Positions 11,394-31,542 of a stretch of 35,317 nucleotides of DNA are shown piece by piece. Each line of letters starts with the position of its first letter. The stretch's first letter is position 1. Origin of the DNA: a virus; IMG/VR virus record IMGVR_UViG_3300045988_121885, positions 1-35,317 of that record; one strand, given 5' to 3'. Made by a program: the position numbers and the translations under genes. The notes under the pieces were generated by a model. That model saw only the letters and a program-made list of their open reading frames with translations. It made no database searches and was not told the origin of the DNA.

Positions 11394-14300
11394 TTAATTT
11401 GCTCGTCTGCGATTAAGAATTGTGATAGAATTTTGCCGTTTTTTGAAAGATAAATATTTTTGAGCGTACATTGCTATCACATCTATACTATCATCATAGG
11501 CATTGTGCGCCGTATATGAAAACGAGGTAAGGTACTTCATAAACTTGCCAAACTCTGAACCTTGCGCATATATCCCAAATTCCGGGAATACAATAGAAGA
11601 CTTTATGACAGCTTCATTATCATATATTTTATCCTCTTTATGCTTATAGCTATATACTTCCGTAATATTACAATAATCTATACCTCTTTCGTAAAGCATA
11701 CCGCGCAATAGTGTGGCAAGGCTTGTATCAGTGTTGCGCTCTATGTGCAATCGCGTAATGTGGTGCTGCTCTATTTTACGAATTATAGTAGGATATATCT
11801 TTTCCATAGGCTTCATTTCAAATATACAGTCTTTGAGATAATGTTTATCGCCTATGGGCAGACAAATAGCCATTGCTATATAGTTTGCGCCGGTACGCGC
11901 AGGGTCAAGCATAGCCCAACAGCTTTCCTCGTCTTTTTCTTCCTCAATATGTGGTATAGCCTTATATGTTAATAGATTATCATAGCTAAAAGCACAACCC
12001 TCAATAGGCATAGGCTCTTGCATATCCATAGCCATAAAAGTATTATAGTCGGCAAGTCTGTCAGCCCGAGCTTCCTCTGTGGTGTATTTATGCGGATATG
12101 TGCTTTCGTCAGTGTCCCAGTCAAGTTTAGGAACAGACACGAAAACTGCCTTATGCTGAGCATTAAACTTTGTGTATTTATTGATTTTACTCTGTTTAGC
12201 CGTATCACCGCCATATTTGCGCTTTATCGTAGACAGAAAGTCATAAATATGGTAGGTAGTGCCACTGAAAACCTCAAAACTGTTATTATCGTCATATTTT
12301 CGCTTTTTCCACTGGTCTTGATACCGCTCTATATCTTTTTCGTGCATATTGATATTGCCCTTGTCTTTTGACCGTGTAATATCATCGTAAAAGCGATATT
12401 TATATCGTCCACCGTCCACAGGGGTGTCTTTATTTGCCAATAGGAACGATGTGCCTTTAATACTTCCGTGGATAAGCAAGCGTGCCACTTGATTATTGCC
12501 ACCCTCACGCCGAACATCAAATATTTTGTCCTTATCACCCTCAAATTGAGCATAATATGGGAAAACCTTAGCATAATTAGGCTTGCACATATATTTTACC
12601 AATTTTGCGGACATATCGGTTATCAATGAGGGATTTCCAACTATTTTTAATACATCTGCGTTTATATCTATGCCAAATATATAGGATATTAGAACGGTAT
12701 CGGCATAGCTATTATGTGATACTACACCATTTGCAATGAAATTGTGCGTTTCTTCAACTTCAATGTCAACCATATCCGTTAGAGTTTCGTCAAATTCTAT
12801 GCTTTTTATCTTTTGCCATACAAAGTCATTTGAGACAACATCTTTAAGCAAACCTGTTTTTTCTGAAAATTCGTCAATCCATTGTTTTTTAAAAGATGAA
12901 GTTTTCGCCCAAGATTTATTTTTTATTTTCTTCAACTCTTTGCAATGACAAACAACGCTTTTAGGATAGTTTACATTGTTTGAATATGGCGGCATACTCT
13001 TTGAAAACAACCATTCAACTCTGTTTTTCAGATTTTCTTGCTTATGATAACAATAACAGTTTTTGTATAATTTGTTTATGAACTCATCGGGTATTGTAAG
13101 ATTGTAACAATCAAATGTTTTGCCCTCACACTTGCTTTTTCTATGACAATAATAAGAGTATATGCCACAAGTGCTTAAAAGTCTTTGTATGTCTTGTATA
13201 AGCCCCTCGTTAGCAAGCGATATTCCACAAGGGCTTTCACCTTTATTTATCCAACCGTCAGTAGCAAACATTATGCCGATAAATTTATATCTTTGTTTTA
13301 AACTCATTTCAAAAAACTGTTTAGGCAGTCTTTTGGTATAAGACAAATGATTTATAACGCCATAACGGGTAAGAACATCTGCCACTTTGCCATTTGCACT
13401 GTGTATTCTCACTTCGTACGCTTTTGAGGGGTGAGAAACACTATATGTTACGCCCCATTTATCAAGCACCGAAATAAATCTATCCAAAATTTCGTTCTTT
13501 TCTTTGATAAATCTAAATCTTGCCTGTTTGCAATGCCCATCAAAAATCATACAAGTGACAAAAAACAGTTCGTCTTCGTCAATTTCATAGCCATAATTCA
13601 ATGGCGAGCAGATTTCAAAAAGATAATCGCTAATGGTTATATCTTTACACATTTTATAACCTTTGTCGGTGTACAATCTATGCTCGGGACTGCAAATTAT
13701 CTCTTTGCCATTATTAAGCCTAATTTTGATTTGCTTTTTTTCTGTATTCCATTTATTCGTTATTCGCCTTACGACAGGTTTGTTTTCTTTCATAGAATAC
13801 ACAAAATCGCCAATATTAACATTTTTGATAGGTTTATAACCCTGTGTGGTTAAAATAGGCGTATCAGCTTTTAGGCACTTTCCATACCCGACTGGGCATT
13901 GTTTTTCAAGGTATTTCACAGTGCCGTCAAGCACCATTTTATCAGCATAATACCAAAATCCCTTAAAACAATTAAGGTTATATTTCCATACCTTGTCATT
14001 TTCAGGCATACCCCACTCCATATAAAGCGCAAAGTGTTCTATGTTGCGGAAAGCCGACAAAGCGTAAAAATTCTCGTACAATTTGCCGTATTCAGTATAA
14101 TTCTCTTGTAATTTCAGCAGCCGAGCCCTGTTTTCCTCGGTGAATTTCTCTTTTTTGAGTTTATCAGCCAAAACAGCCATTTTTTTCAGTTTATCACGCA
14201 ATGTAGGCAAAACAAATTTGCAGACATACTCAATATGCTTGCGGATTTCGTCCTCGCCCTCGTTATCACGCAACTGTGCCAAATAACCGTGTATCTGCGA

Positions 14301-14429
14301 ATGCATAGTGCGATATAAATTATCGCTGACAGCTAAAACATACTCGTCACTGTCTAAATACTTTGCATTTTTGCGCATTTCGCTAAATGCAACACAGCCT
14401 TCACGAACAATCTCGCCGATATTATCCAT
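11394..14429 (-). CDS. terL: Terminase large subunit precursor (622-aa extein plus 389-aa intein)
   Basis: The Walker A motif PVGYGK|S is split by the intein. Walker-B-like YRFYDDI, and nuclease-type acidic motifs AMLDPARTG and AYDDSIDVIAMY. Lies upstream of portal. RBS GGAGGTG 6 nt before the ATG. Confidence 0.9.
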   Translation of the reverse strand: MDNIGEIVREGCVAFSEMRKNAKYLDSDEYVLAVSDNLYRTMHSQIHGYLAQLRDNEGEDEIRKHIEYVCKFVLPTLRDKLKKMAVLADKLKKEKFTEENRARLLKLQENYTEYGKLYENFYALSAFRNIEHFALYMEWGMPENDKVWKYNLNCFKGFWYYADKMVLDGTVKYLEKQCPVGYGKCLKADTPILTTQGYKPIKNVNIGDFVYSMKENKPVVRRITNKWNTEKKQIKIRLNNGKEIICSPEHRLYTDKGYKMCKDITISDYLFEICSPLNYGYEIDEDELFFVTCMIFDGHCKQARFRFIKEKNEILDRFISVLDKWGVTYSVSHPSKAYEVRIHSANGKVADVLTRYGVINHLSYTKRLPKQFFEMSLKQRYKFIGIMFATDGWINKGESPCGISLANEGLIQDIQRLLSTCGIYSYYCHRKSKCEGKTFDCYNLTIPDEFINKLYKNCYCYHKQENLKNRVEWLFSKSMPPYSNNVNYPKSVVCHCKELKKIKNKSWAKTSSFKKQWIDEFSEKTGLLKDVVSNDFVWQKIKSIEFDETLTDMVDIEVEETHNFIANGVVSHNSYADTVLISYIFGIDINADVLKIVGNPSLITDMSAKLVKYMCKPNYAKVFPYYAQFEGDKDKIFDVRREGGNNQVARLLIHGSIKGTSFLLANKDTPVDGGRYKYRFYDDITRSKDKGNINMHEKDIERYQDQWKKRKYDDNNSFEVFSGTTYHIYDFLSTIKRKYGGDTAKQSKINKYTKFNAQHKAVFVSVPKLDWDTDESTYPHKYTTEEARADRLADYNTFMAMDMQEPMPIEGCAFSYDNLLTYKAIPHIEEEKDEESCWAMLDPARTGANYIAMAICLPIGDKHYLKDCIFEMKPMEKIYPTIIRKIEQHHITRLHIERNTDTSLATLLRGMLYERGIDYCNITEVYSYKHKEDKIYDNEAVIKSSIVFPEFGIYAQGSEFGKFMKYLTSFSYTAHNAYDDSIDVIAMYAQKYLSFKKRQNSITILNRRRAN
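12711..13877 (-). mobile_element. Class-1 intein with nested LAGLIDADG homing endonuclease, inserted in the terL P-loop
   Basis: - Cys1 (codon 13877-13875) follows GYGK.
- Block A CLKADTPILT; block B ICSPEHRLYT.
- LAGLIDADG-type motifs LFFVTCMIFDGHC and YKFIGIMFATDGWI.
- Blocks F/G MVDIEVEETHNFIANGVVSHN, with terminal Asn at codon 12713-12711 and +1 Ser.
- Removing the intein restores GYGKSYADTV. Confidence 0.9.
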
Positions 14430-14455
14430 TCATAGCACCTCCGCCAGTTTTTATT

Positions 14456-14484
14456 ATTATAGCAAATAAGCCAAACAATTTCAA
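14456..14484 (-). promoter_or_regulatory. Promoter P3: TTGAAA-17-TGcTATAAT immediately upstream of terL
   Basis: Minus strand: cacTTGAAAttgtttggcttatttgcTATAATaataaaaactggcGGAGGTGctatgaATG. Confidence 0.65.
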
Positions 14485-14490
14485 GTGTAT

Positions 14491-14534
14491 AAAAAGCGAC
14501 CGCCCAGCAGAGAGGTGTACAACTGCAGGCGGTC
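14491..14534 (-). terminator. Intrinsic terminator T2 (GACCGCC-GCAG / CTGC-GGCGGTC, then a T-tract)
   Basis: Minus strand: GACCGCCtGCAGttgtacacctctCTGCtgGGCGGTCgcTTTTTat. The stem is 7+4 bp. Confidence 0.7.
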
Positions 14535-14593
14535 AAAGAAAGGAGATAATGAAAACGTCTAAACAAAACTTAAATATCAGAGTTTTCAAATAC

Positions 14594-14622
14594 AATATAC
14601 CACATATTTTCTCATTTGTCAA
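14594..14622 (-). promoter_or_regulatory. Promoter P2: TTGACA-17-TGgTATATT
   Basis: Minus strand: ctaTTGACAaatgagaaaatatgtggTATATTgtatt. Confidence 0.6.
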
Positions 14623-14626
14623 TAGC

Positions 14627-14655
14627 AAAAAAGCAACAGCCATAATAGCCATTGC
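14627..14655 (-). terminator. Intrinsic terminator T1 (GCAATGGC / GCTGTTGC, then T6)
   Basis: Minus strand: GCAATGGCtattatgGCTGTTGCTTTTTTgc. The 8-bp stem includes two G-U pairs. Confidence 0.55.
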
Positions 14656-14690
14656 CTTTCCGCTATATCCAAAATTATTACTGTATAGCC

Positions 14691-14719
14691 ATTATATCAT
14701 ATCCATTATTCTTTGTCAA
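14691..14719 (-). promoter_or_regulatory. Promoter P1: TTGACA-17-TGaTATAAT, overlapping the 3' end of the 95-aa gene
   Basis: Minus strand: gagcTTGACAaagaataatggatatgaTATAATggc. Perfect hexamers plus an extended -10. Confidence 0.6.
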
Positions 14720-14993
14720 GCTCTAACAAAAACGCAACATTGCAAGCAATATGATACAAGTGCGGCAAGCCACTATCCTCATCAACCCCGTGTGGCTCTT
14801 TCAGCCATTTGCATATGTGCCGCATTAAAGCCGCTCTGTATCGCTTAGGGTCGACATTCTTATAACTGCCCTCGCCATATTTTTCAGCACCATGTGTCAT
14901 AACAACGCCCACAGCCTCTATTATCTCCGCAGGCACTAAATCCAACCTCGGCTTGCCACCGTCGTGCTTTAATCCGTCTGTAACAACATCCAT
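14706..14993 (-). CDS. Small nucleotide pyrophosphohydrolase-like protein (DUF5664 / dATP-dGTP diphosphohydrolase N-domain-like)
   Basis: Pattern KHDGGKPRLDLVP...GAEKYG...YRAALMRHICKW...DEDSGLPHLYHIACNVAFLLE matches my memory of that phage family. RBS GAGAGGTGG 7 nt upstream. Confidence 0.55.
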   Translation of the reverse strand: MDVVTDGLKHDGGKPRLDLVPAEIIEAVGVVMTHGAEKYGEGSYKNVDPKRYRAALMRHICKWLKEPHGVDEDSGLPHLYHIACNVAFLLELDKE

Positions 14994-15037
14994 TGTAATT
15001 CCACCTCTCTTAAATATCAGCCATAAGCCATACCGCC

Positions 15038-15067
15038 ATTATAGCACCCCGTCCCGGCGCTTGTCAA
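15038..15067 (-). promoter_or_regulatory. Promoter P0: TTGACA-18-TGcTATAAT for the 95-aa gene
   Basis: Minus strand: gggTTGACAagcgccgggacggggtgcTATAATggcgg. Confidence 0.6.
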
Positions 15068-15341
15068 CCCTTGCATAAATTCTGCATTTTTATTCATTTT
15101 CTATGCACAAGCCGGCAAAAAACAACTTTGTAAATTTTTAAAATTCGGGGGGGTAACCCGACCGCTGGCTGACCTTTTCGGAATAGGGTTCGGGGTGGTT
15201 TTCGTTCCGTGAACGCCTTTAAATAAAACGTTTTTGTGTTACAAATACGAACGATAAAGAAACAAACGCACATTTTAAACCCGCTTTATCAATTTAGCAC
15301 TTTATCGTGTTAAAGTTGATAGGTTTACTCCCTTTTATTTT

Positions 15342-15383
15342 TTTATACTTTTCTTTTATTTTTAGTTTATACTTTTCTTTTAT
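15342..15383. repeat. Two 18-bp direct repeats (tttatacttttcttttat) with 24-bp period
   Basis: Copies at 15342-15359 and 15366-15383, read directly, within an AT-rich non-coding stretch. Confidence 0.85.
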
Positions 15384-15414
15384 ATTATACTCATATAAAT
15401 ATTATATACTTGGT

Positions 15415-15448
15415 TATTGTTGTATATAGGCTTATAAAGACAACAATA
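15415..15448. repeat. 9-bp inverted repeat TATTGTTGT / ACAACAATA with 16-bp spacer
   Basis: Arms at 15415-15423 and 15440-15448. Flanking GTTATT/AATAAC extends the symmetry with an offset. Confidence 0.8.
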
Positions 15449-15480
15449 TAATAACACGGTGCAAGGCTTAATATTATGAA

Positions 15481-15492
15481 TAAATAGGCATA
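15481..15492. repeat. Left arm of the 12-bp inverted repeat TAAATAGGCATA bracketing the plus-strand cassette
   Basis: Its exact reverse complement TATGCCTATTTA lies at 17323-17334. Confidence 0.8.
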
Positions 15493-15524
15493 TAAAAATA
15501 TTTATTTGAAGATTAAAATTTTAC

Positions 15525-15553
15525 TTGACAATTATATAATATAGTGATATAAT
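15525..15553 (+). promoter_or_regulatory. Consensus sigma-A promoter TTGACA-17-TGaTATAAT for the plus-strand cassette
   Basis: Plus strand: ttacTTGACAattatataatatagtgaTATAATaaag, with an AT-rich UP-like tract upstream. Confidence 0.75.
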
Positions 15554-15586
15554 AAAGACAACGAAAGGAAAGGAGAAAAAAACAAG

Positions 15587-15703
15587 ATGAAAACGGAAGA
15601 TATTAAAAATTTGTTGCATTTGGTTGTTGAACTTCTAAAACGGTGTAAAACGGTCGACGAAGCTATAAAAGCAATCTGCAACGCTTACGACATCCACGAA
15701 TAA
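15587..15703 (+). CDS. Possible 38-aa leader ORF (MKTEDIKNLLHLVVELLKRCKTVDEAIKAICNAYDIHE)
   Basis: ATG lies 11 nt after AGGAG, which is a long spacing. Two short GC hairpins follow (15714-15745). It is below the ORF-track cut-off and may be a non-coding leader instead. Confidence 0.35.
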   Translation: MKTEDIKNLLHLVVELLKRCKTVDEAIKAICNAYDIHE

Positions 15704-15778
15704 CAAACGCCGAGCCGGGCGGCATAACCCGGCAGCCTTCGGGCTTGTTAATTAAAATAAATAAAAGAGGTTTTAAAA

Positions 15779-16165
15779 ATGAAAACAAACAACAAAAAAG
15801 CGCGCGAGAACATACGCAAATATGTTATTGCAAACTTTACCCCGGAGGGCTACACGGACAACCCGCCGCAGGAGTTCCCCGAAATAGCCCGCTTTATTTT
15901 ATCCACTTTCAGAAATGAAAAATACAGCACCCCGGAAGACTTCCATTATTATCGAAATAACGAGCTTGTAGCGTTCGCGGATTGGTGCGCGGGGCTTTGC
16001 GGTGTTCTCGATACTTGTTATTTTTATAACCGTTACGCCGTTGATGACCTCGGCGCAATTCTTAAAGAAACAGAAGAAGAAAAAGCGCGCTATACAGAAG
16101 AACAAGCCGAAAATACATTAACTTTTTTAATTTATCGCGAGTTAATAAAAGGGGCTACAGAATAA
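15779..16165 (+). CDS. Hypothetical 128-aa protein, first substantial gene of the plus-strand cassette
   Basis: RBS AAGAGG 8 nt upstream. Its stop overlaps the next start (ATAATG). No motif recognised. Confidence 0.7.
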   Translation: MKTNNKKARENIRKYVIANFTPEGYTDNPPQEFPEIARFILSTFRNEKYSTPEDFHYYRNNELVAFADWCAGLCGVLDTCYFYNRYAVDDLGAILKETEEEKARYTEEQAENTLTFLIYRELIKGATE

Positions 16166-17157
16166 TGTATAACGGCGAACAATTGGCGCAGGCGCTGACC
16201 GTTTTCGGTCTGCCCTGCGTTTTTAAAGAAATGAAACAAACCCCACGAAATACAATATATTATTTTGATTTTACGGACTGGAACAAAGTCACAGCGGGCA
16301 GGCGCAAAACAGCACTTGACCGTCTTTCACTATATGCCGAACATCAATTTAATTATATTGACAGTAATATATCACATTTTGCAATATATCACGCTGAAGA
16401 CAATTATAGTATTGTCCCGCTTTTCGAACTTGCCTTGCCTGCTGATGATACATATAAATTCATCGCGGGCATAAACGAGGACGGCGGACAAGTCAATATT
16501 TCATTAGACGGAATGACGCATGCATTAATTGCAGGTACTACCGGCAGCGGTAAAAGCGTATTTTTGAAAAGCTTTTTATATTCTTTATTGACTACCAATA
16601 GCCCGAATAAAGTAAAATGTGCTATTATAGATAAAAAACGCAGTTTGAATTATTGGAGCAGGGCGGCGCACTGTCTCAAAGTCGTTAATGATGATATTTC
16701 GGCAATAACTTTATTAAATACTTTTCAAAAAGAAATGTATAACCGATATGAAGAATTGCGGCGGCGAGGACTTGAAAAAAATATCGGGTTGTTTCCTAAG
16801 TGGGTATTGATAATTGATGAATTGGCGGATTTAATGCTGACCGAGCGCAAAACAGAAATTGAAAGTAAACTTGTTTCGCTTTGTCAGCTCGGGCGCGCTG
16901 CTGGTATTCATTGCATATTATGCACCCAGTCGCCCCGCGTTGCCGTTGTCAGTGGTTTAATTCAGGCAAATACCCCGACAAAGATTATATTTAAAACAGC
17001 GAACACGCGGGAAAGCGTGTTGTGTTTGGGTCATTCGGGAGCGGAAAAGCTGCTCGGGAATGGTGACTGCCTTATAAAACTTCCCGATAAAGTAAAAGAT
17101 ATTAGAGTACAAACGCCATTTGCAACTGATGAAGATTTCAGAAACTGTATAGAATAG
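16165..17157 (+). CDS. FtsK/SpoIIIE-family ATPase (motor domain only, no TM or gamma domain)
   Basis: Walker A LIAGTTGSGKSVFL, Walker B WVLIIDELADLM, then LGRAAGIHCILCTQSPRVAVVSGLIQANTPTKIIFKTANTRESVLCLG...GNGDCLI. This is the canonical order of FtsK motor motifs. Confidence 0.85.
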   Translation: MYNGEQLAQALTVFGLPCVFKEMKQTPRNTIYYFDFTDWNKVTAGRRKTALDRLSLYAEHQFNYIDSNISHFAIYHAEDNYSIVPLFELALPADDTYKFIAGINEDGGQVNISLDGMTHALIAGTTGSGKSVFLKSFLYSLLTTNSPNKVKCAIIDKKRSLNYWSRAAHCLKVVNDDISAITLLNTFQKEMYNRYEELRRRGLEKNIGLFPKWVLIIDELADLMLTERKTEIESKLVSLCQLGRAAGIHCILCTQSPRVAVVSGLIQANTPTKIIFKTANTRESVLCLGHSGAEKLLGNGDCLIKLPDKVKDIRVQTPFATDEDFRNCIE

Positions 17158-31179: not shown

Positions 31180-31255
31180 TGGTAATCACTCCTTTGTTTA
31201 TATTATAACTCTAAATAAAACAAAAAAATCGCACGATAAACGCACGATTTACGCA

Positions 31256-31298
31256 TAAAAACTCCCCCACGGCGAAAGTATTTAAAATACCGTGGGGG
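31256..31298 (-). terminator. Hairpin CCCCCACGG (17-nt loop) CCGTGGGGG followed by AGTTTTTAT
   Basis: Read directly, downstream of the 66-aa HTH gene. The loop is long for a terminator. Confidence 0.5.
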
Positions 31299-31341
31299 AA
31301 TAGAAAGGAGGTGTCCGCCGATTGCGGAATTTCCGACATAA

Positions 31342-31542
31342 TTAAATTTCTTTTAAAATTTTCTTGCAGATAGAATTTATTCGTTTTGATACCGTTCTAT
31401 CGCAAATATTTAACTTAATAGCAATTTGCGTTATTGAATAACCTTTACGGCGCAAATCAAATATTTCGATTTCTTCTTCACTAAACGGACAGCGTTCAAG
31501 AAATCTTTGGTATTCATCATATGAAAAGTCAAACTTATTCAA
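31342..31542 (-). CDS. Sigma-70 region-4 / LuxR-type HTH small regulator (66 aa)
   Basis: EIEIFDLRRKGYSITQIAIKLNICDRTVSKRINSICKKI resembles region 4. TTG start after GGCGGTGA. Confidence 0.65.
   Translation of the reverse strand: MNKFDFSYDEYQRFLERCPFSEEEIEIFDLRRKGYSITQIAIKLNICDRTVSKRINSICKKILKEI

What the first reader, a model, noticed from the sequence alone, without database searches (positions are those of the whole stretch)
14456..14719. Three tandem promoters and two intrinsic terminators in 264 bp upstream of terL: two candidate sRNAs or an antitermination leader for the late operon
On the minus strand I read, in order:
- P1: TTGACA-17-TGaTATAAT (14719-14691).
- T1: 8-bp hairpin plus U6 (14655-14627).
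- P2: TTGACA-17-TGgTATATT (14622-14594).
- T2: 7+4-bp GC hairpin plus U5 (14534-14491).
- P3: TTGAAA-17-TGcTATAAT (14484-14456).
- The terL RBS and ATG.
P1->T1 would give a ~55-60-nt RNA and P2->T2 a ~95-100-nt RNA. Neither contains a convincing ORF. The P2 RNA carries CUCCUUUCU (14545-14537) immediately 5' of its terminator. That sequence is complementary to the GGAGG-type RBSs used throughout this genome and resembles the 16S rRNA 3' end.

Possible roles:
- trans-acting sRNAs that mask RBSs;
- a leader in the lambda PR'-tR' or HK022 put style that gates late and packaging transcription by antitermination;
- structure associated with a pac site.
Basis: partly seen in the sequence, partly recalled or inferred. 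Interest (0 to 1): 0.65.

Follow-up and report, generated by a model that had tools for sequence, protein, structure and literature searches.

The report
Two phage small-RNA genes before terL
The 276-base gap before this phage's DNA-packaging gene holds two small, conserved, separately transcribed non-coding RNA genes, and one of them displays a single-stranded copy of the ribosome's mRNA-docking sequence, so it probably blocks translation starts rather than gating transcription of the packaging genes.

Summary
Three near-consensus extended -10 promoters and two hairpin-plus-U terminators lie between a dATP/dGTP diphosphohydrolase-like gene and an intein-containing terL. The window has 8 promoters of this strength, against 0.11 expected by chance.

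Relatives from metagenomes (31-99% terL N-extein identity) show the region is built from self-contained units, each with its own promoter, small RNA and terminator.
- Unit B (P1-T1, about 58 nt) has a conserved 5' ACAGUA(A/G)UA and a conserved hairpin.
- Unit A (P2-T2, about 97 nt) has a 5' hairpin, a single-stranded (A/C)CCUCCUUUCU and a terminator hairpin.
- In unit A only the anti-Shine-Dalgarno-like stretch is invariant. Both hairpins change by compensatory substitutions.
- Unit order is A-B in most relatives and B-A here, and unit number varies.
- A consensus promoter always follows the last terminator.

This supports independent small-RNA genes. It argues against an antitermination gate, a pac site or a hidden ORF.

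A second A-type module lies in the 3'UTR of an HTH gene (31253-31334). Similar modules occur in unrelated phage contigs.

The closest analogue is the streptococcal csRNAs, but this is not a member of that family. No target was identified, and expression and function are untested.

The parts
15038..15067 (-). P0: TTGACA-18-TGcTATAAT promoter for the upstream dATP/dGTP diphosphohydrolase-like gene
   Evidence: 12/12 plus TG. It follows the conserved non-coding block, at the place taken by the first leader promoter in L006, L080 and L082.
14706..14993 (-). 95-aa ORF with a dATP/dGTP diphosphohydrolase N-terminal domain. In this lineage it sits between P0 and the small-RNA units.
   Evidence: Pfam PF18909, E = 2e-26; PHROG 801. 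It is absent from this position in L006, L080, L082, L023 and L024.
14691..14719 (-). P1: promoter of unit B. Its -35 lies just upstream of the stop codon (14708-14706) of the preceding ORF, and that stop codon lies inside the P1 spacer.
   Evidence: 12/12 plus TG. Conserved in L001-L005 and L021.
14627..14684 (-). Unit B small RNA, about 58 nt (predicted). 5' ACAGUAAUAAU, then a purine-rich tract, then the T1 hairpin and U6.
   Evidence: The 5' motif ACAGUA(A/G)UA lies 6-7 nt after the -10 in the window group, L080, L081 and L082. The hairpin is homologous in L006, L080, L082, L024, L025 and L081; its core 11 bp are 100% paired.
14627..14655 (-). T1: intrinsic terminator of unit B. Probably also ends the P0 transcript.
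   Evidence: 8-bp stem plus U6, core dG -10.2 kcal/mol. Compensatory GG/CU to AA/UU change in L002, L005 and L021.
14594..14622 (-). P2: promoter of unit A
   Evidence: 11/12 plus TG.
14491..14587 (-). Unit A small RNA, about 97 nt (predicted). Hairpin H1, then single-stranded AUUAUCUCCUUUCUUU, then hairpin H2 (= T2), then U5.
   Evidence: MFE fold. Model R1, built only from L006, L080 and L023, finds it at 14487-14581. Covariation on A5: 91.5% of cells paired against about 45% when slid, and 20 of 28 pairs changed on both sides.
14550..14587 (-). H1 of unit A: stem with a U-rich loop
   Evidence: L001, whose terL N-extein is 99% identical, has a different H1 sequence that still pairs.
14537..14545 (-). 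CUCCUUUCU: anti-Shine-Dalgarno-like seed, identical to the last 9 nt of the Firmicute 16S 3' tail GAUCACCUCCUUUCU
   Evidence: Exact match. It is the longest run of invariant columns in unit A across lineages. Predicted unpaired probability is 1.0. The 16S tail sequence is as quoted in PMC3025663.
14491..14534 (-). T2 (= H2): intrinsic terminator of unit A
   Evidence: dG -19.2 kcal/mol, followed by GC and U5. 8 of its 15 pairs change on both sides across lineages.
14456..14484 (-). P3: promoter of the terL/packaging operon, downstream of both terminators
   Evidence: 11/12 plus TG. A 12/12 equivalent at a fixed 11-nt distance from the RBS is found in L006, L023 and L024; L080 and L082 have a 12/12 promoter with a variant RBS (GGTGGAGG / GTGGAGG).
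14427..14445 (-). terL RBS GGCGGAGGUG and start codon ATG (14429-14427). Predicted 5'UTR is only about 20 nt.
   Evidence: GCGGAGGTGCT is conserved in the window group, L006, L023 and L024, with one- or two-base variants in L080 and L082.
11394..14429 (-). terL: large terminase with a T7-type RNaseH-like nuclease domain, interrupted by an intein with a LAGLIDADG endonuclease (about aa 185-575)
   Evidence: Pfam PF14890, PF14528 and PF22530; PHROG 38.
31253..31334 (-). Second A-type module. A small hairpin, then GGACACCUCCUUUCUAUU, then a terminator hairpin and U5. It lies in the 3'UTR of a 66-aa GerE/LuxR-type HTH ORF (31342..31542).
   Evidence: Sequence. R1 hit at 20.5 bits, E = 0.015. Conserved with compensatory changes in L144-L147. 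HTH assignment from Pfam PF00196.

Best explanation
The spacer holds two independent small non-coding RNA genes followed by the promoter of the packaging operon. It is not a single regulated leader.

- P1 transcribes unit B, about 58 nt, ending at T1.
- P2 transcribes unit A, about 97 nt, ending at T2.
- P3 then transcribes terL and the structural genes with a 5'UTR of only about 20 nt.
- T1 and T2 also shield the packaging operon from upstream transcription. T1 probably also ends the P0 (dATP/dGTP diphosphohydrolase-like gene) transcript.

Unit A is a two-hairpin RNA. Its unpaired linker carries CUCCUUUCU, the sequence of the 3' tail of Firmicute 16S rRNA. I infer that it pairs with Shine-Dalgarno regions of mRNAs, favouring AGAAAGGAG-type sites, and blocks 30S binding in trans. 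This is how the streptococcal csRNAs are thought to work. A paralogous module in the 3'UTR of an HTH regulator gene would act the same way, in cis or after processing.

The role of unit B is less clear. It may be a small RNA in its own right, or a 5' leader hairpin that became a separate terminated transcript in this lineage.

Shown by sequence and comparison: the promoter and terminator signals, the modularity, the covariation, and the invariance and predicted accessibility of the seed.

Inferred only: that the RNAs are made, that the terminators work, that unit A acts by base pairing, and what its targets are.
For: Promoters:
- Three near-consensus extended -10 promoters lie within 264 nt.
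- The window has 8 such promoters against 0.11 expected, all co-oriented with the genes.

Conservation of the architecture:
- It holds across relatives with 57-99% terL N-extein identity, while the sequence between the signals diverges: L006, L080, L082, L023 and L024.
- The units are permutable and vary in number. Order is A then B in L006, L080, L082 and L024, and B then A in the window group. L024 has extra units. L023 shows unit A only. In L025 and L081, unit B lies in a 5'UTR with a degenerate U-run.

Unit A:
- Every lineage folds as H1, then an unpaired linker that carries the seed, then H2 and a U-run; in some predicted folds a few seed bases are paired.
- Model R1, built from three distant relatives, recovers the window's unit A and a second copy at 31253-31334.
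- On A5, 91.5% of cells are paired against 41-51% when slid. 20 of 28 pairs change on both sides, and 0 of 500 shuffles reach the observed values.
- The only invariant block in unit A is CTCCTTT.
- The seed has unpaired probability of at least 0.94 at every position in 4 of 8 versions and at 8 of 9 positions in a fifth.
- Identity to the 16S tail reaches 12-13 nt in L023 and in the 31310 module.

Unit B:
- The hairpin core is 100% paired, with GC to AU changes. The 5' end motif is conserved.

Second module:
- It is conserved with compensatory changes in relatives, including one whose HTH protein is only 68% identical.

Same layout elsewhere:
- Promoter, H1, ACCUCCUUUCU, terminator and next promoter occur in unrelated viral contigs L101/L117, L126 and L133.
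- The forward motif after a consensus promoter gave 54 stretches. The reversed 10-mer gave 8.

Analogue:
- csRNAs have two stem-loops and an unpaired anti-SD/anti-AUG region (PMC3091779).
Against: - There are no expression data. The host is unknown, and no isolate genome or GenBank phage matched.
- No specific target was found. The seed flanks do not covary with the terL translation start region.
- The best non-self duplex in the window is with the start region of the + strand 38-aa ORF at 15587, at -23 kcal/mol. This is not clearly above background.
- The window's own seed is the weakest version: UCUCC instead of CCUCC, with 9 nt of identity to the 16S tail.
- T1 is a modest hairpin (-10.2 kcal/mol, 2 G-U pairs).
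- The alignment used for the covariation count was fitted to the model's structure, which inflates pairing. Several rows are near-identical relatives.
- R1 E-values for the window hits are marginal (0.015-0.14).
- In L025 and L081 unit B behaves as a 5'UTR element, so a cis role for B cannot be excluded.
Confidence: 0.55

Rival explanations
1. Attenuation or antitermination leader. T1 and T2 are regulated terminators. A phage factor, either a protein or the nascent RNA itself as in lambda Q/PR'-tR' or HK022 put, lets upstream transcription from P0, P1 or P2 read through into terL late in infection. The short RNAs are by-products.
For: - The region lies directly upstream of the packaging and structural operon.
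- The unit B hairpin sits inside the 5'UTR, with a weak U-run, in L025 and L081. It can therefore work as a leader element.
- The conserved 5' ACAGUA(A/G)UA could be a protein recognition site.
- In Stx phages the terminated PR' transcript is both a late-leader product and a small RNA (StxS; review PMC12197685).
Against: - P3 is a near-consensus sigma-A promoter. It lies downstream of both terminators, about 20 nt upstream of the terL start, and is conserved in all relatives that have terminated units. The operon therefore does not depend on read-through.
- Each unit has its own consensus promoter.
- Unit order is swapped between lineages.
- No Q-like or other antiterminator family was recognised in the 35 ORFs scanned.
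- No Rfam family matched.
Confidence: 0.12
2. Plain promoter stacking with insulating terminators. The hairpins only stop upstream transcripts, and the promoters only raise or buffer expression. The short RNAs and the CUCCUUUCU stretch have no function of their own.
For: - Tandem strong promoters are common in phage control regions (my own knowledge: T7 A1-A3, phi29 A2b/A2c).
- T1 is placed to end the P0 transcript.
- No target was found for the seed.
Against: - An insulator needs only a terminator. It needs neither H1, which covaries, nor an invariant unpaired CCUCCUUU when everything around it diverges.
- The same H1, anti-SD and terminator design recurs in a 3'UTR of this phage, with covariation, and in unrelated phage contigs.
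- A promoter whose transcript ends after 58-97 nt adds nothing to terL expression.
Confidence: 0.15
3. DNA-level packaging signal (pac or cos). The inverted repeats are binding or bending sites for the small terminase.
For: - The region is next to terL.
- Several relatives' contigs break a few hundred bases upstream.
Against: - The stems change by compensatory substitutions, including G-U pairs. That pattern fits RNA, not DNA recognition.
- The promoter hexamers are the conserved DNA elements here.
- A better DNA-site candidate lies upstream at about 15090-15260. It is conserved in sequence and has no consensus fold.
Confidence: 0.05
4. Hidden small protein gene or type I toxin-antitoxin pair. 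The candidates are the + strand ORF that starts at ATG 14549 behind AGAAAGGAGATA, and the minus-strand 39-aa hydrophobic ORF at 14533..14652. Unit A would be the antisense regulator.
For: - The + strand has a perfect SD followed by ATG, and stays open across the whole spacer.
- Both ORFs are hydrophobic in part.
- Indels among close relatives are multiples of three.
Against: - The + strand ATG is missing in L001, L006, L023 and L082.
- Where the ATG exists, the peptides are unrelated (L080 against the window).
- The SD-to-ATG spacing is only 3 nt.
- The ORF would run antisense through the neighbouring gene.
- The minus-strand ORF crosses T1 and P2. It is cut to 20 aa in L001 and extended in L022.
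Confidence: 0.03

Closest known systems
Streptococcal csRNAs (cia-dependent small RNAs; PMC3091779)
   Same: - Small RNAs of about 50-200 nt, each with its own strong promoter and an intrinsic terminator.
- Typically two stem-loops with an unpaired region between them that carries an anti-SD sequence.
- Often present in several copies.
- One copy is plasmid-borne.
- The proposed action is to block translation start regions.
   Different: - The promoters here are canonical -35/-10 sigma-A promoters, not CiaR-dependent ones.
- The csRNA nonamer [A/C]UCCUAAA[A/C] is absent.
- There is no Rfam hit.
- The seed extends into the UUUCU part of the 16S tail.
- The genes are phage-encoded and sit in tandem in front of terL.
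- An anti-AUG (CAU) is present only in some lineages, and there it lies inside the H1 stem.
3'UTR anti-SD elements such as S. aureus icaR (my own knowledge, not checked here)
   Same: A pyrimidine-rich anti-SD motif lies in a 3'UTR just before the terminator, as in the module at 31253-31334.
   Different: No pairing with the gene's own 5' SD was shown here. The element has the same two-hairpin design as the free-standing unit A.
Lambda PR'-tR' 6S RNA and StxS of Stx phages (PMC12197685)
   Same: A short terminated transcript from a strong promoter lies just upstream of late genes. In Stx phages that transcript also acts as a trans-acting small RNA.
   Different: In those phages the late genes depend on Q-mediated read-through of the same terminator. 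Here a separate consensus promoter follows the terminators, there are two units, and no Q-like gene was recognised.
P1/P7 c4 and P22 sar antisense RNAs (PMC12197685)
   Same: Phage-encoded small RNAs that repress translation by covering a ribosome-binding site.
   Different: Those RNAs have a defined, locus-specific target with extended complementarity. Here the conserved seed is the generic anti-SD, and no specific target was found.

Membership tests
Sigma-70/sigma-A promoter with extended -10 | -35 TTGACA, spacer of 17 +/- 1, TGn, -10 TATAAT | tested here: met
   P1 is 12/12, P2 is 11/12 and P3 is 11/12, all with TG. The window has 8 such sites against 0.11 in shuffles. They are conserved in relatives.
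Sigma-70/sigma-A promoter with extended -10 | Initiation by host RNA polymerase at the predicted +1 | not testable with these tools
   No transcript data and no known host.
Intrinsic (Rho-independent) terminator | G+C-containing stem-loop followed directly by a U-run | tested here: met
   T1 has 8 bp, dG -10.2 kcal/mol and U6. T2 has dG -19.2 kcal/mol, then GC and U5. The stems are kept by compensatory changes. The tool's simple scan did not list either.
Intrinsic (Rho-independent) terminator | Measured termination | not testable with these tools
   Needs in vitro transcription or Term-seq.
csRNA (Streptococcus cia-dependent sRNA) | Two stem-loops with an unpaired anti-SD region between them | tested here: met
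   Predicted folds in all lineages. Seed unpaired probability is at least 0.94 at every position in 4 of 8 versions and at 8 of 9 positions in a fifth. Feature definition from PMC3091779.
csRNA (Streptococcus cia-dependent sRNA) | Conserved nonamer [A/C]UCCUAAA[A/C] (PMC3091779) | tested here: not met
   Not present in the unit A sequences read.
csRNA (Streptococcus cia-dependent sRNA) | CiaR-dependent promoter: a direct-repeat box in place of a -35 (my own knowledge of the CiaR box) | tested here: not met
   All unit promoters carry a canonical TTGACA -35.
csRNA (Streptococcus cia-dependent sRNA) | Match to a curated RNA family model | tested here: not met
   No Rfam match at gathering score. 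Only chance-level hits at E up to 10.
Lambda-type late antitermination leader (PR'-tR'/Q) | The late operon has no promoter of its own downstream of the terminator and depends on read-through | tested here: not met
   P3 (11/12 plus TG) lies between T2 and terL and is conserved.
Lambda-type late antitermination leader (PR'-tR'/Q) | A Q-type antiterminator is encoded by the phage | tested here: inconclusive
   None was recognised among 35 ORFs scanned with Pfam or PHROGs. Many ORFs have no family.
HK022 put-type cis-acting antiterminator RNA | Two stem-loops in the nascent RNA that modify the transcribing polymerase so that it ignores downstream terminators | not testable with these tools
   No model of put was available to me, and the activity needs transcription assays. 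Each unit here ends at its own terminator, which argues against this.
Type I toxin-antitoxin | A conserved small, usually hydrophobic, ORF whose start region is covered by the antisense RNA | tested here: not met
   The opposite-strand ATG is absent in L001, L006, L023 and L082. The peptides are not conserved.
pac/cos packaging site | Site of terminase binding or cleavage | not testable with these tools
   Needs virion end mapping. Conservation here is RNA-like. A DNA-like conserved block lies at about 15090-15260.

The most novel reading that the evidence does not exclude
A-type RNAs may be mimics of the 16S rRNA 3' tail that form a recurrent, undescribed class in phages of Firmicutes.

- Each is a strongly transcribed two-hairpin RNA that presents (CA)CCUCCUUUCU.
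- It would soak up Shine-Dalgarno sites, or a factor that recognises the ribosomal tail.
- This would re-programme translation during infection. For example, it could separate AAAGGAG-type starts (capsid, endolysin, RecT in this phage) from GGAGGUG-type starts (terL).

Two observations are in keeping with a class rather than a one-off: the same design in unrelated viral contigs (L101/L117, L126, L133), and a paralogue in a 3'UTR of this phage.
Probability: 0.15. Interest if true: 0.8.

Novelty: new member of a known kind. Interest (0 to 1): 0.55.

Why it matters
Few phage-encoded regulatory small RNAs are characterised. In the 2025 review I consulted (PMC12197685), the examples are mostly from Gram-negative hosts, and none carries an anti-Shine-Dalgarno seed.

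This locus offers a compact, well-delimited pair of candidates with clear promoters, terminators, covarying structure and an obvious seed. They come from an uncultured group of Firmicute phages, and similar modules occur in other phage contigs.

If the seed acts as inferred, the phage carries its own tool for shutting down or re-ordering translation initiation. Synthetic RNAs and reporters could test this even without the native host.

The result also corrects the annotation. The terL operon has its own constitutive-looking promoter and is not gated by these terminators.

Tried and rejected
- Rfam gave nothing at gathering score. At E up to 10 it gave only chance-level hits: MCS4 at 24 bits against a gathering score of 56, and Plastid-psbJ-2.
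- GenBank phages (INPHARED) gave no match to 14300-15100 with distant blastn, and none to the terL N-extein with tblastn.
- GTDB species genomes hold no relative of the terL N-extein, so no prophage and no host could be identified.
- Loci found with the dATP/dGTP diphosphohydrolase-like protein (L012-L020) do not carry the leader. That gene is a mobile neighbour.
- The RBS-anchored pattern TATAAT-N9-13-GCGGAGGTGCT found only the six known IMG/VR contigs and chance hits.
- A MAFFT-only alignment of unit A gave no consensus fold because the stems were out of register. I switched to a covariance-model alignment.
- Target search with RNAduplex against both strands of the window found no hit clearly above background. 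The terL start region is not specifically complementary in any lineage, and A-B pairing is not consistent.
- The opposite-strand ORF and the minus-strand 39-aa ORF were rejected on conservation.
- The upstream conserved block has no consensus RNA structure.
- R1 does not detect the look-alike modules in other phages above chance. They are analogues, not shown to be homologues.
Full report
**Observation**

Promoters:
- The consensus scan lists P1 (14719-14691, 12/12, TG), P2 (14622-14594, 11/12, TG) and P3 (14484-14456, 11/12, TG).
- It also lists a fourth promoter of the same quality, P0, at 15067-15038.
- Across the whole 35-kb window there are only 8 sites of at least 11/12 plus TG. Seven are on the minus strand and one is on the plus strand. 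Each points the same way as the genes next to it.
- 300 dinucleotide shuffles gave a mean of 0.11 such sites and a maximum of 2.

Terminators:
- The simple terminator scan did not list T1 or T2, but both are present.
- T1 is GCAAUGGC-UAUUAUG-GCUGUUGC followed by U6. Core dG is -10.2 kcal/mol.
- T2 is GACCGCCUGCAG-loop-CUGCUGGGCGGUC followed by GC and U5. dG is -19.2 kcal/mol.

Other points:
- The 276-nt spacer folds much better than shuffles, with z = -5.4.
- CUCCUUUCU is at 14545-14537.

**Context**

The flanking genes:
- Downstream is a large terminase of 1011 aa. It is interrupted by an intein with a LAGLIDADG endonuclease.
- It is followed by a portal gene and a major capsid gene.
- Upstream is a 95-aa protein with a dATP/dGTP diphosphohydrolase N-terminal domain. 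Its stop codon lies inside P1.

The rest of the window is a phage genome that reads almost entirely on the minus strand:
- endolysin;
- recombination and replication genes;
- a small serine recombinase;
- HTH proteins;
- a short divergent plus-strand operon with an FtsK-like gene;
- an AT-rich non-coding stretch;
- then P0.

The nearest known phage proteins come from phages of Firmicutes. The portal is about 24% identical and the amidase about 55%. No GenBank phage and no GTDB genome holds a close relative.

**Relatives**

The terL N-extein recovered three sets of relatives:
- Close relatives at 96-99% identity: L001-L005, L021 and L022.
- Diverged relatives: L006 (74%), L023 (73%), L024 (67%) and L025 (68%), with L026-L028 at 31-44%.
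- Three more found through the protein database: L080, L081 and L082.

The region upstream of terL is modular.
- L006, L080, L082 and L024 read: conserved non-coding block, promoter, unit A, promoter, unit B, promoter, RBS GGCGGAGGUGCU (with one- or two-base variants in L080, L082 and L024), terL.
- L024 has extra units.
- L023, L024 and L081 have an HExxH ORF between the last promoter and RBS and terL.
- In L025 and L081 a single promoter is followed by the unit B hairpin with a degenerate U-run, and then the RBS.
- The window group reads P0, dATP/dGTP diphosphohydrolase-like gene, P1, unit B, P2, unit A, P3. The two units are therefore in the opposite order.
- Every unit keeps its own TTGACA-17-(TG)nTATAAT promoter. 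The sequence between the signals diverges.

**Unit A**

Structure and covariation:
- In every lineage the RNA predicted from the promoter to the U-run folds into three parts. These are a 5' hairpin with a U-rich loop, an unpaired stretch, and a long terminator hairpin.
- The unpaired stretch holds (A/C)CCUCCUUUCU. In the window it is UCUCCUUUCU.
- In a plain alignment the CTCCTTT core is the longest run of invariant columns; the other invariant columns are isolated.
- I built a covariance model from L006, L080 and L023 alone. It then found L024 and L082, and the window-group unit A at the expected place, with E = 0.013-0.14.
- It also found an unexpected second site in the window at 31253-31334, with E = 0.015.
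- On the resulting alignment, 91.5% of cells form pairs, against 41-51% when partners are slid. 20 of 28 pairs show changes on both sides, and no shuffle out of 500 reaches the observed values.
- The alignment was fitted to the model and some rows are near-duplicates, so these numbers are generous. The raw pair table nevertheless shows many independent compensatory changes.
- One such case is L001. Its terL N-extein is 99% identical, yet it carries a different H1 sequence that still pairs.

The seed:
- The seed is predicted unpaired in most lineages.
- It equals the end of the Firmicute 16S tail, GAUCACCUCCUUUCU, as quoted in PMC3025663.
- Identity runs 9 nt in the window's unit A, 11 nt in L006 and L080, 12 nt in the 31310 module and 13 nt in L023.

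**Unit B**

- The hairpin GGC(A/G)AU(G/A)G...C(U/C)(A/G)U(U/C)GYC is shared by the window, L006, L080, L082, L024, L025 and L081.
- Its core 11 pairs are paired in all sequences, and two positions switch between GC and AU.
- The predicted 5' end, ACAGUA(A/G)UA, lies 6-7 nt after the -10 in four lineages.
- B can be a free-standing terminated RNA or part of a 5'UTR. Its role is therefore less certain than that of unit A.

**Second A-type module**

- It lies just after the stop codon of a 66-aa GerE/LuxR-type HTH ORF (31342..31542).
- It reads UUCCGCAAUCGGCGGA, then CACCUCCUUUCUAUU, then CCCCCACGG...CCGUGGGGG, then UUUUU.
- It is conserved in four relatives, including one whose HTH protein is only 68% identical. 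Both hairpins show compensatory changes there.
- On the coding (minus) strand of this window, CTCCTTT occurs only three times. Two are these modules. The third is the antisense of the RBS of a plus-strand ORF.

**What the region is not**

Antitermination gate:
- This is unlikely. P3 lies after both terminators, is near-consensus, and leaves a 5'UTR of only about 20 nt.
- P3 is conserved in all relatives that have terminated units.
- The units have their own promoters and swap order.
- No antiterminator family was recognised.

pac site:
- This is unlikely for this interval, because the stems evolve as RNA helices.
- A block conserved in DNA sequence with no consensus fold lies upstream at about 15090-15260, next to AT-rich repeats. 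Several relatives' contigs break in that area.

Hidden ORFs:
- The plus-strand ORF behind AGAAAGGAGATAATG loses its ATG in L001, L006, L023 and L082, and has no peptide conservation.
- The minus-strand 39-aa ORF crosses T1 and P2. It is truncated in L001 and extended in L022.

**Mechanism**

The best-supported reading is this:
- P1-T1 and P2-T2 are small-RNA genes.
- P3 is the packaging-operon promoter.
- The terminators also insulate that operon.
- Unit A acts through its exposed anti-SD stretch on translation start regions.

The closest described analogue is the streptococcal csRNA family. Those RNAs have two stem-loops and an unpaired region complementary to SD and start codon, several copies per genome, and one plasmid-borne copy (PMC3091779).

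Unit A is not a member of that family:
- The promoters are canonical rather than CiaR-type.
- The csRNA nonamer is absent.
- Rfam finds nothing.

I could not name a target.
- The seed flanks do not track the terL start region in any lineage.
- The best duplex in the window is with the start of the plus-strand 38-aa ORF at 15587, at -23 kcal/mol. It does not stand clear of background.
- Six minus-strand genes, including the capsid, endolysin and RecT-like genes, use AAAGGAG-type SDs. These match the conserved CUCCUUU, whereas terL uses GGAGGUG. This is suggestive only.

**Beyond this phage**

- A pattern scan of IMG/VR searched for a consensus extended -10 promoter followed within 35-65 nt by CCTCCTTTCT. 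It gave 54 stretches in about 23 sequence families. The reversed 10-mer gave 8 stretches.
- Several unrelated contigs show the same promoter, hairpin, ACCUCCUUUCU, terminator and next-promoter layout: L101/L117, L126 and L133. In L124 the motif sits in the terminator loop.
- Two larger families place the motif upstream of phage tRNA arrays.
- R1 does not link these to unit A above chance. They are analogues at most.
- I found no paper describing anti-SD small RNAs of phages.

**Verdict**

- The small-RNA interpretation is supported by comparative evidence.
- The antitermination and pac interpretations are not supported.
- Expression, termination, targets and host remain untested.

I rate it a new member of a known kind, a base-pairing small RNA with an anti-SD seed, of moderate interest. 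There is a smaller chance that it marks a wider, undescribed class of phage 16S-tail mimics.

Noticed in passing
window 11394-14429 (-): terL is interrupted by an intein carrying a LAGLIDADG homing endonuclease (about aa 185-575). In relatives L080 and L081 the gene calls around terL are split into short ORFs, which suggests other insertions or breaks there.
   Followed up: partly
window 31253-31334 (-): A second hairpin, CACCUCCUUUCU and terminator module lies in the 3'UTR of a 66-aa GerE/LuxR-type HTH ORF (31342..31542). It has 12 nt of identity to the 16S 3' tail and is conserved with compensatory changes in L144-L147.
   Followed up: yes
window ~15090-15560 (-): A conserved non-coding DNA block (...ACGGTCGTTTGTGTAACA......TTACCCC..CAATTTTCAGA...) is shared with L006, L080, L082, L024 and L025. 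It has no consensus RNA fold and sits next to AT-rich direct repeats (15300-15560). Several relatives' contigs end here. It is a candidate cos, pac or origin region. The 59-aa ORF at 15094..15273 overlapping it is probably not a gene.
   Followed up: partly
L023:260-730, L024:760-1180, L081:119-508: In three relatives an ORF of about 130-160 aa with an HExxH motif (HEITHAF / HEIVHAF / HELVHAF) sits between the last leader promoter and RBS and terL. It uses the RBS that terL uses elsewhere.
   Followed up: no
L101, L117:6269-6420, L126, L133:11891-12010, L124: Unrelated IMG/VR phage contigs carry the same layout: consensus promoter, hairpin, unpaired ACCUCCUUUCU, terminator with U-run, next promoter. 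In L101 and L117 this lies upstream of a dUTPase-like gene. In L124 the motif sits in the terminator loop.
   Followed up: partly
L098:331-1792, L122, and L085/L088/L094 etc.: Two multi-member families of viral contigs have CCTCCTTTCT 35-65 nt after a consensus promoter, upstream of phage tRNA gene arrays. Their meaning is unknown.
   Followed up: no
window 15525-17157 (+): A 12/12 extended -10 promoter on the plus strand drives a short divergent operon: a 38-aa ORF with the SD GAAAGGAAAGGAGA, a 128-aa ORF and an FtsK/SpoIIIE-like ATPase. The 38-aa ORF's start region is the best predicted non-self partner of the unit A seed, though not convincingly so.
   Followed up: partly
window 14706-14993 (-) and L012-L020: The dATP/dGTP diphosphohydrolase-like gene occurs in quite different neighbourhoods in other viral contigs. 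It is missing from this position in the diverged relatives, so it looks like a mobile insertion between P0 and the small-RNA units.
   Followed up: partly
window 14511-14519 (-): The loop of T2 holds a second pyrimidine-rich CACCUCUCU stretch. It is present in the window group only.
   Followed up: no
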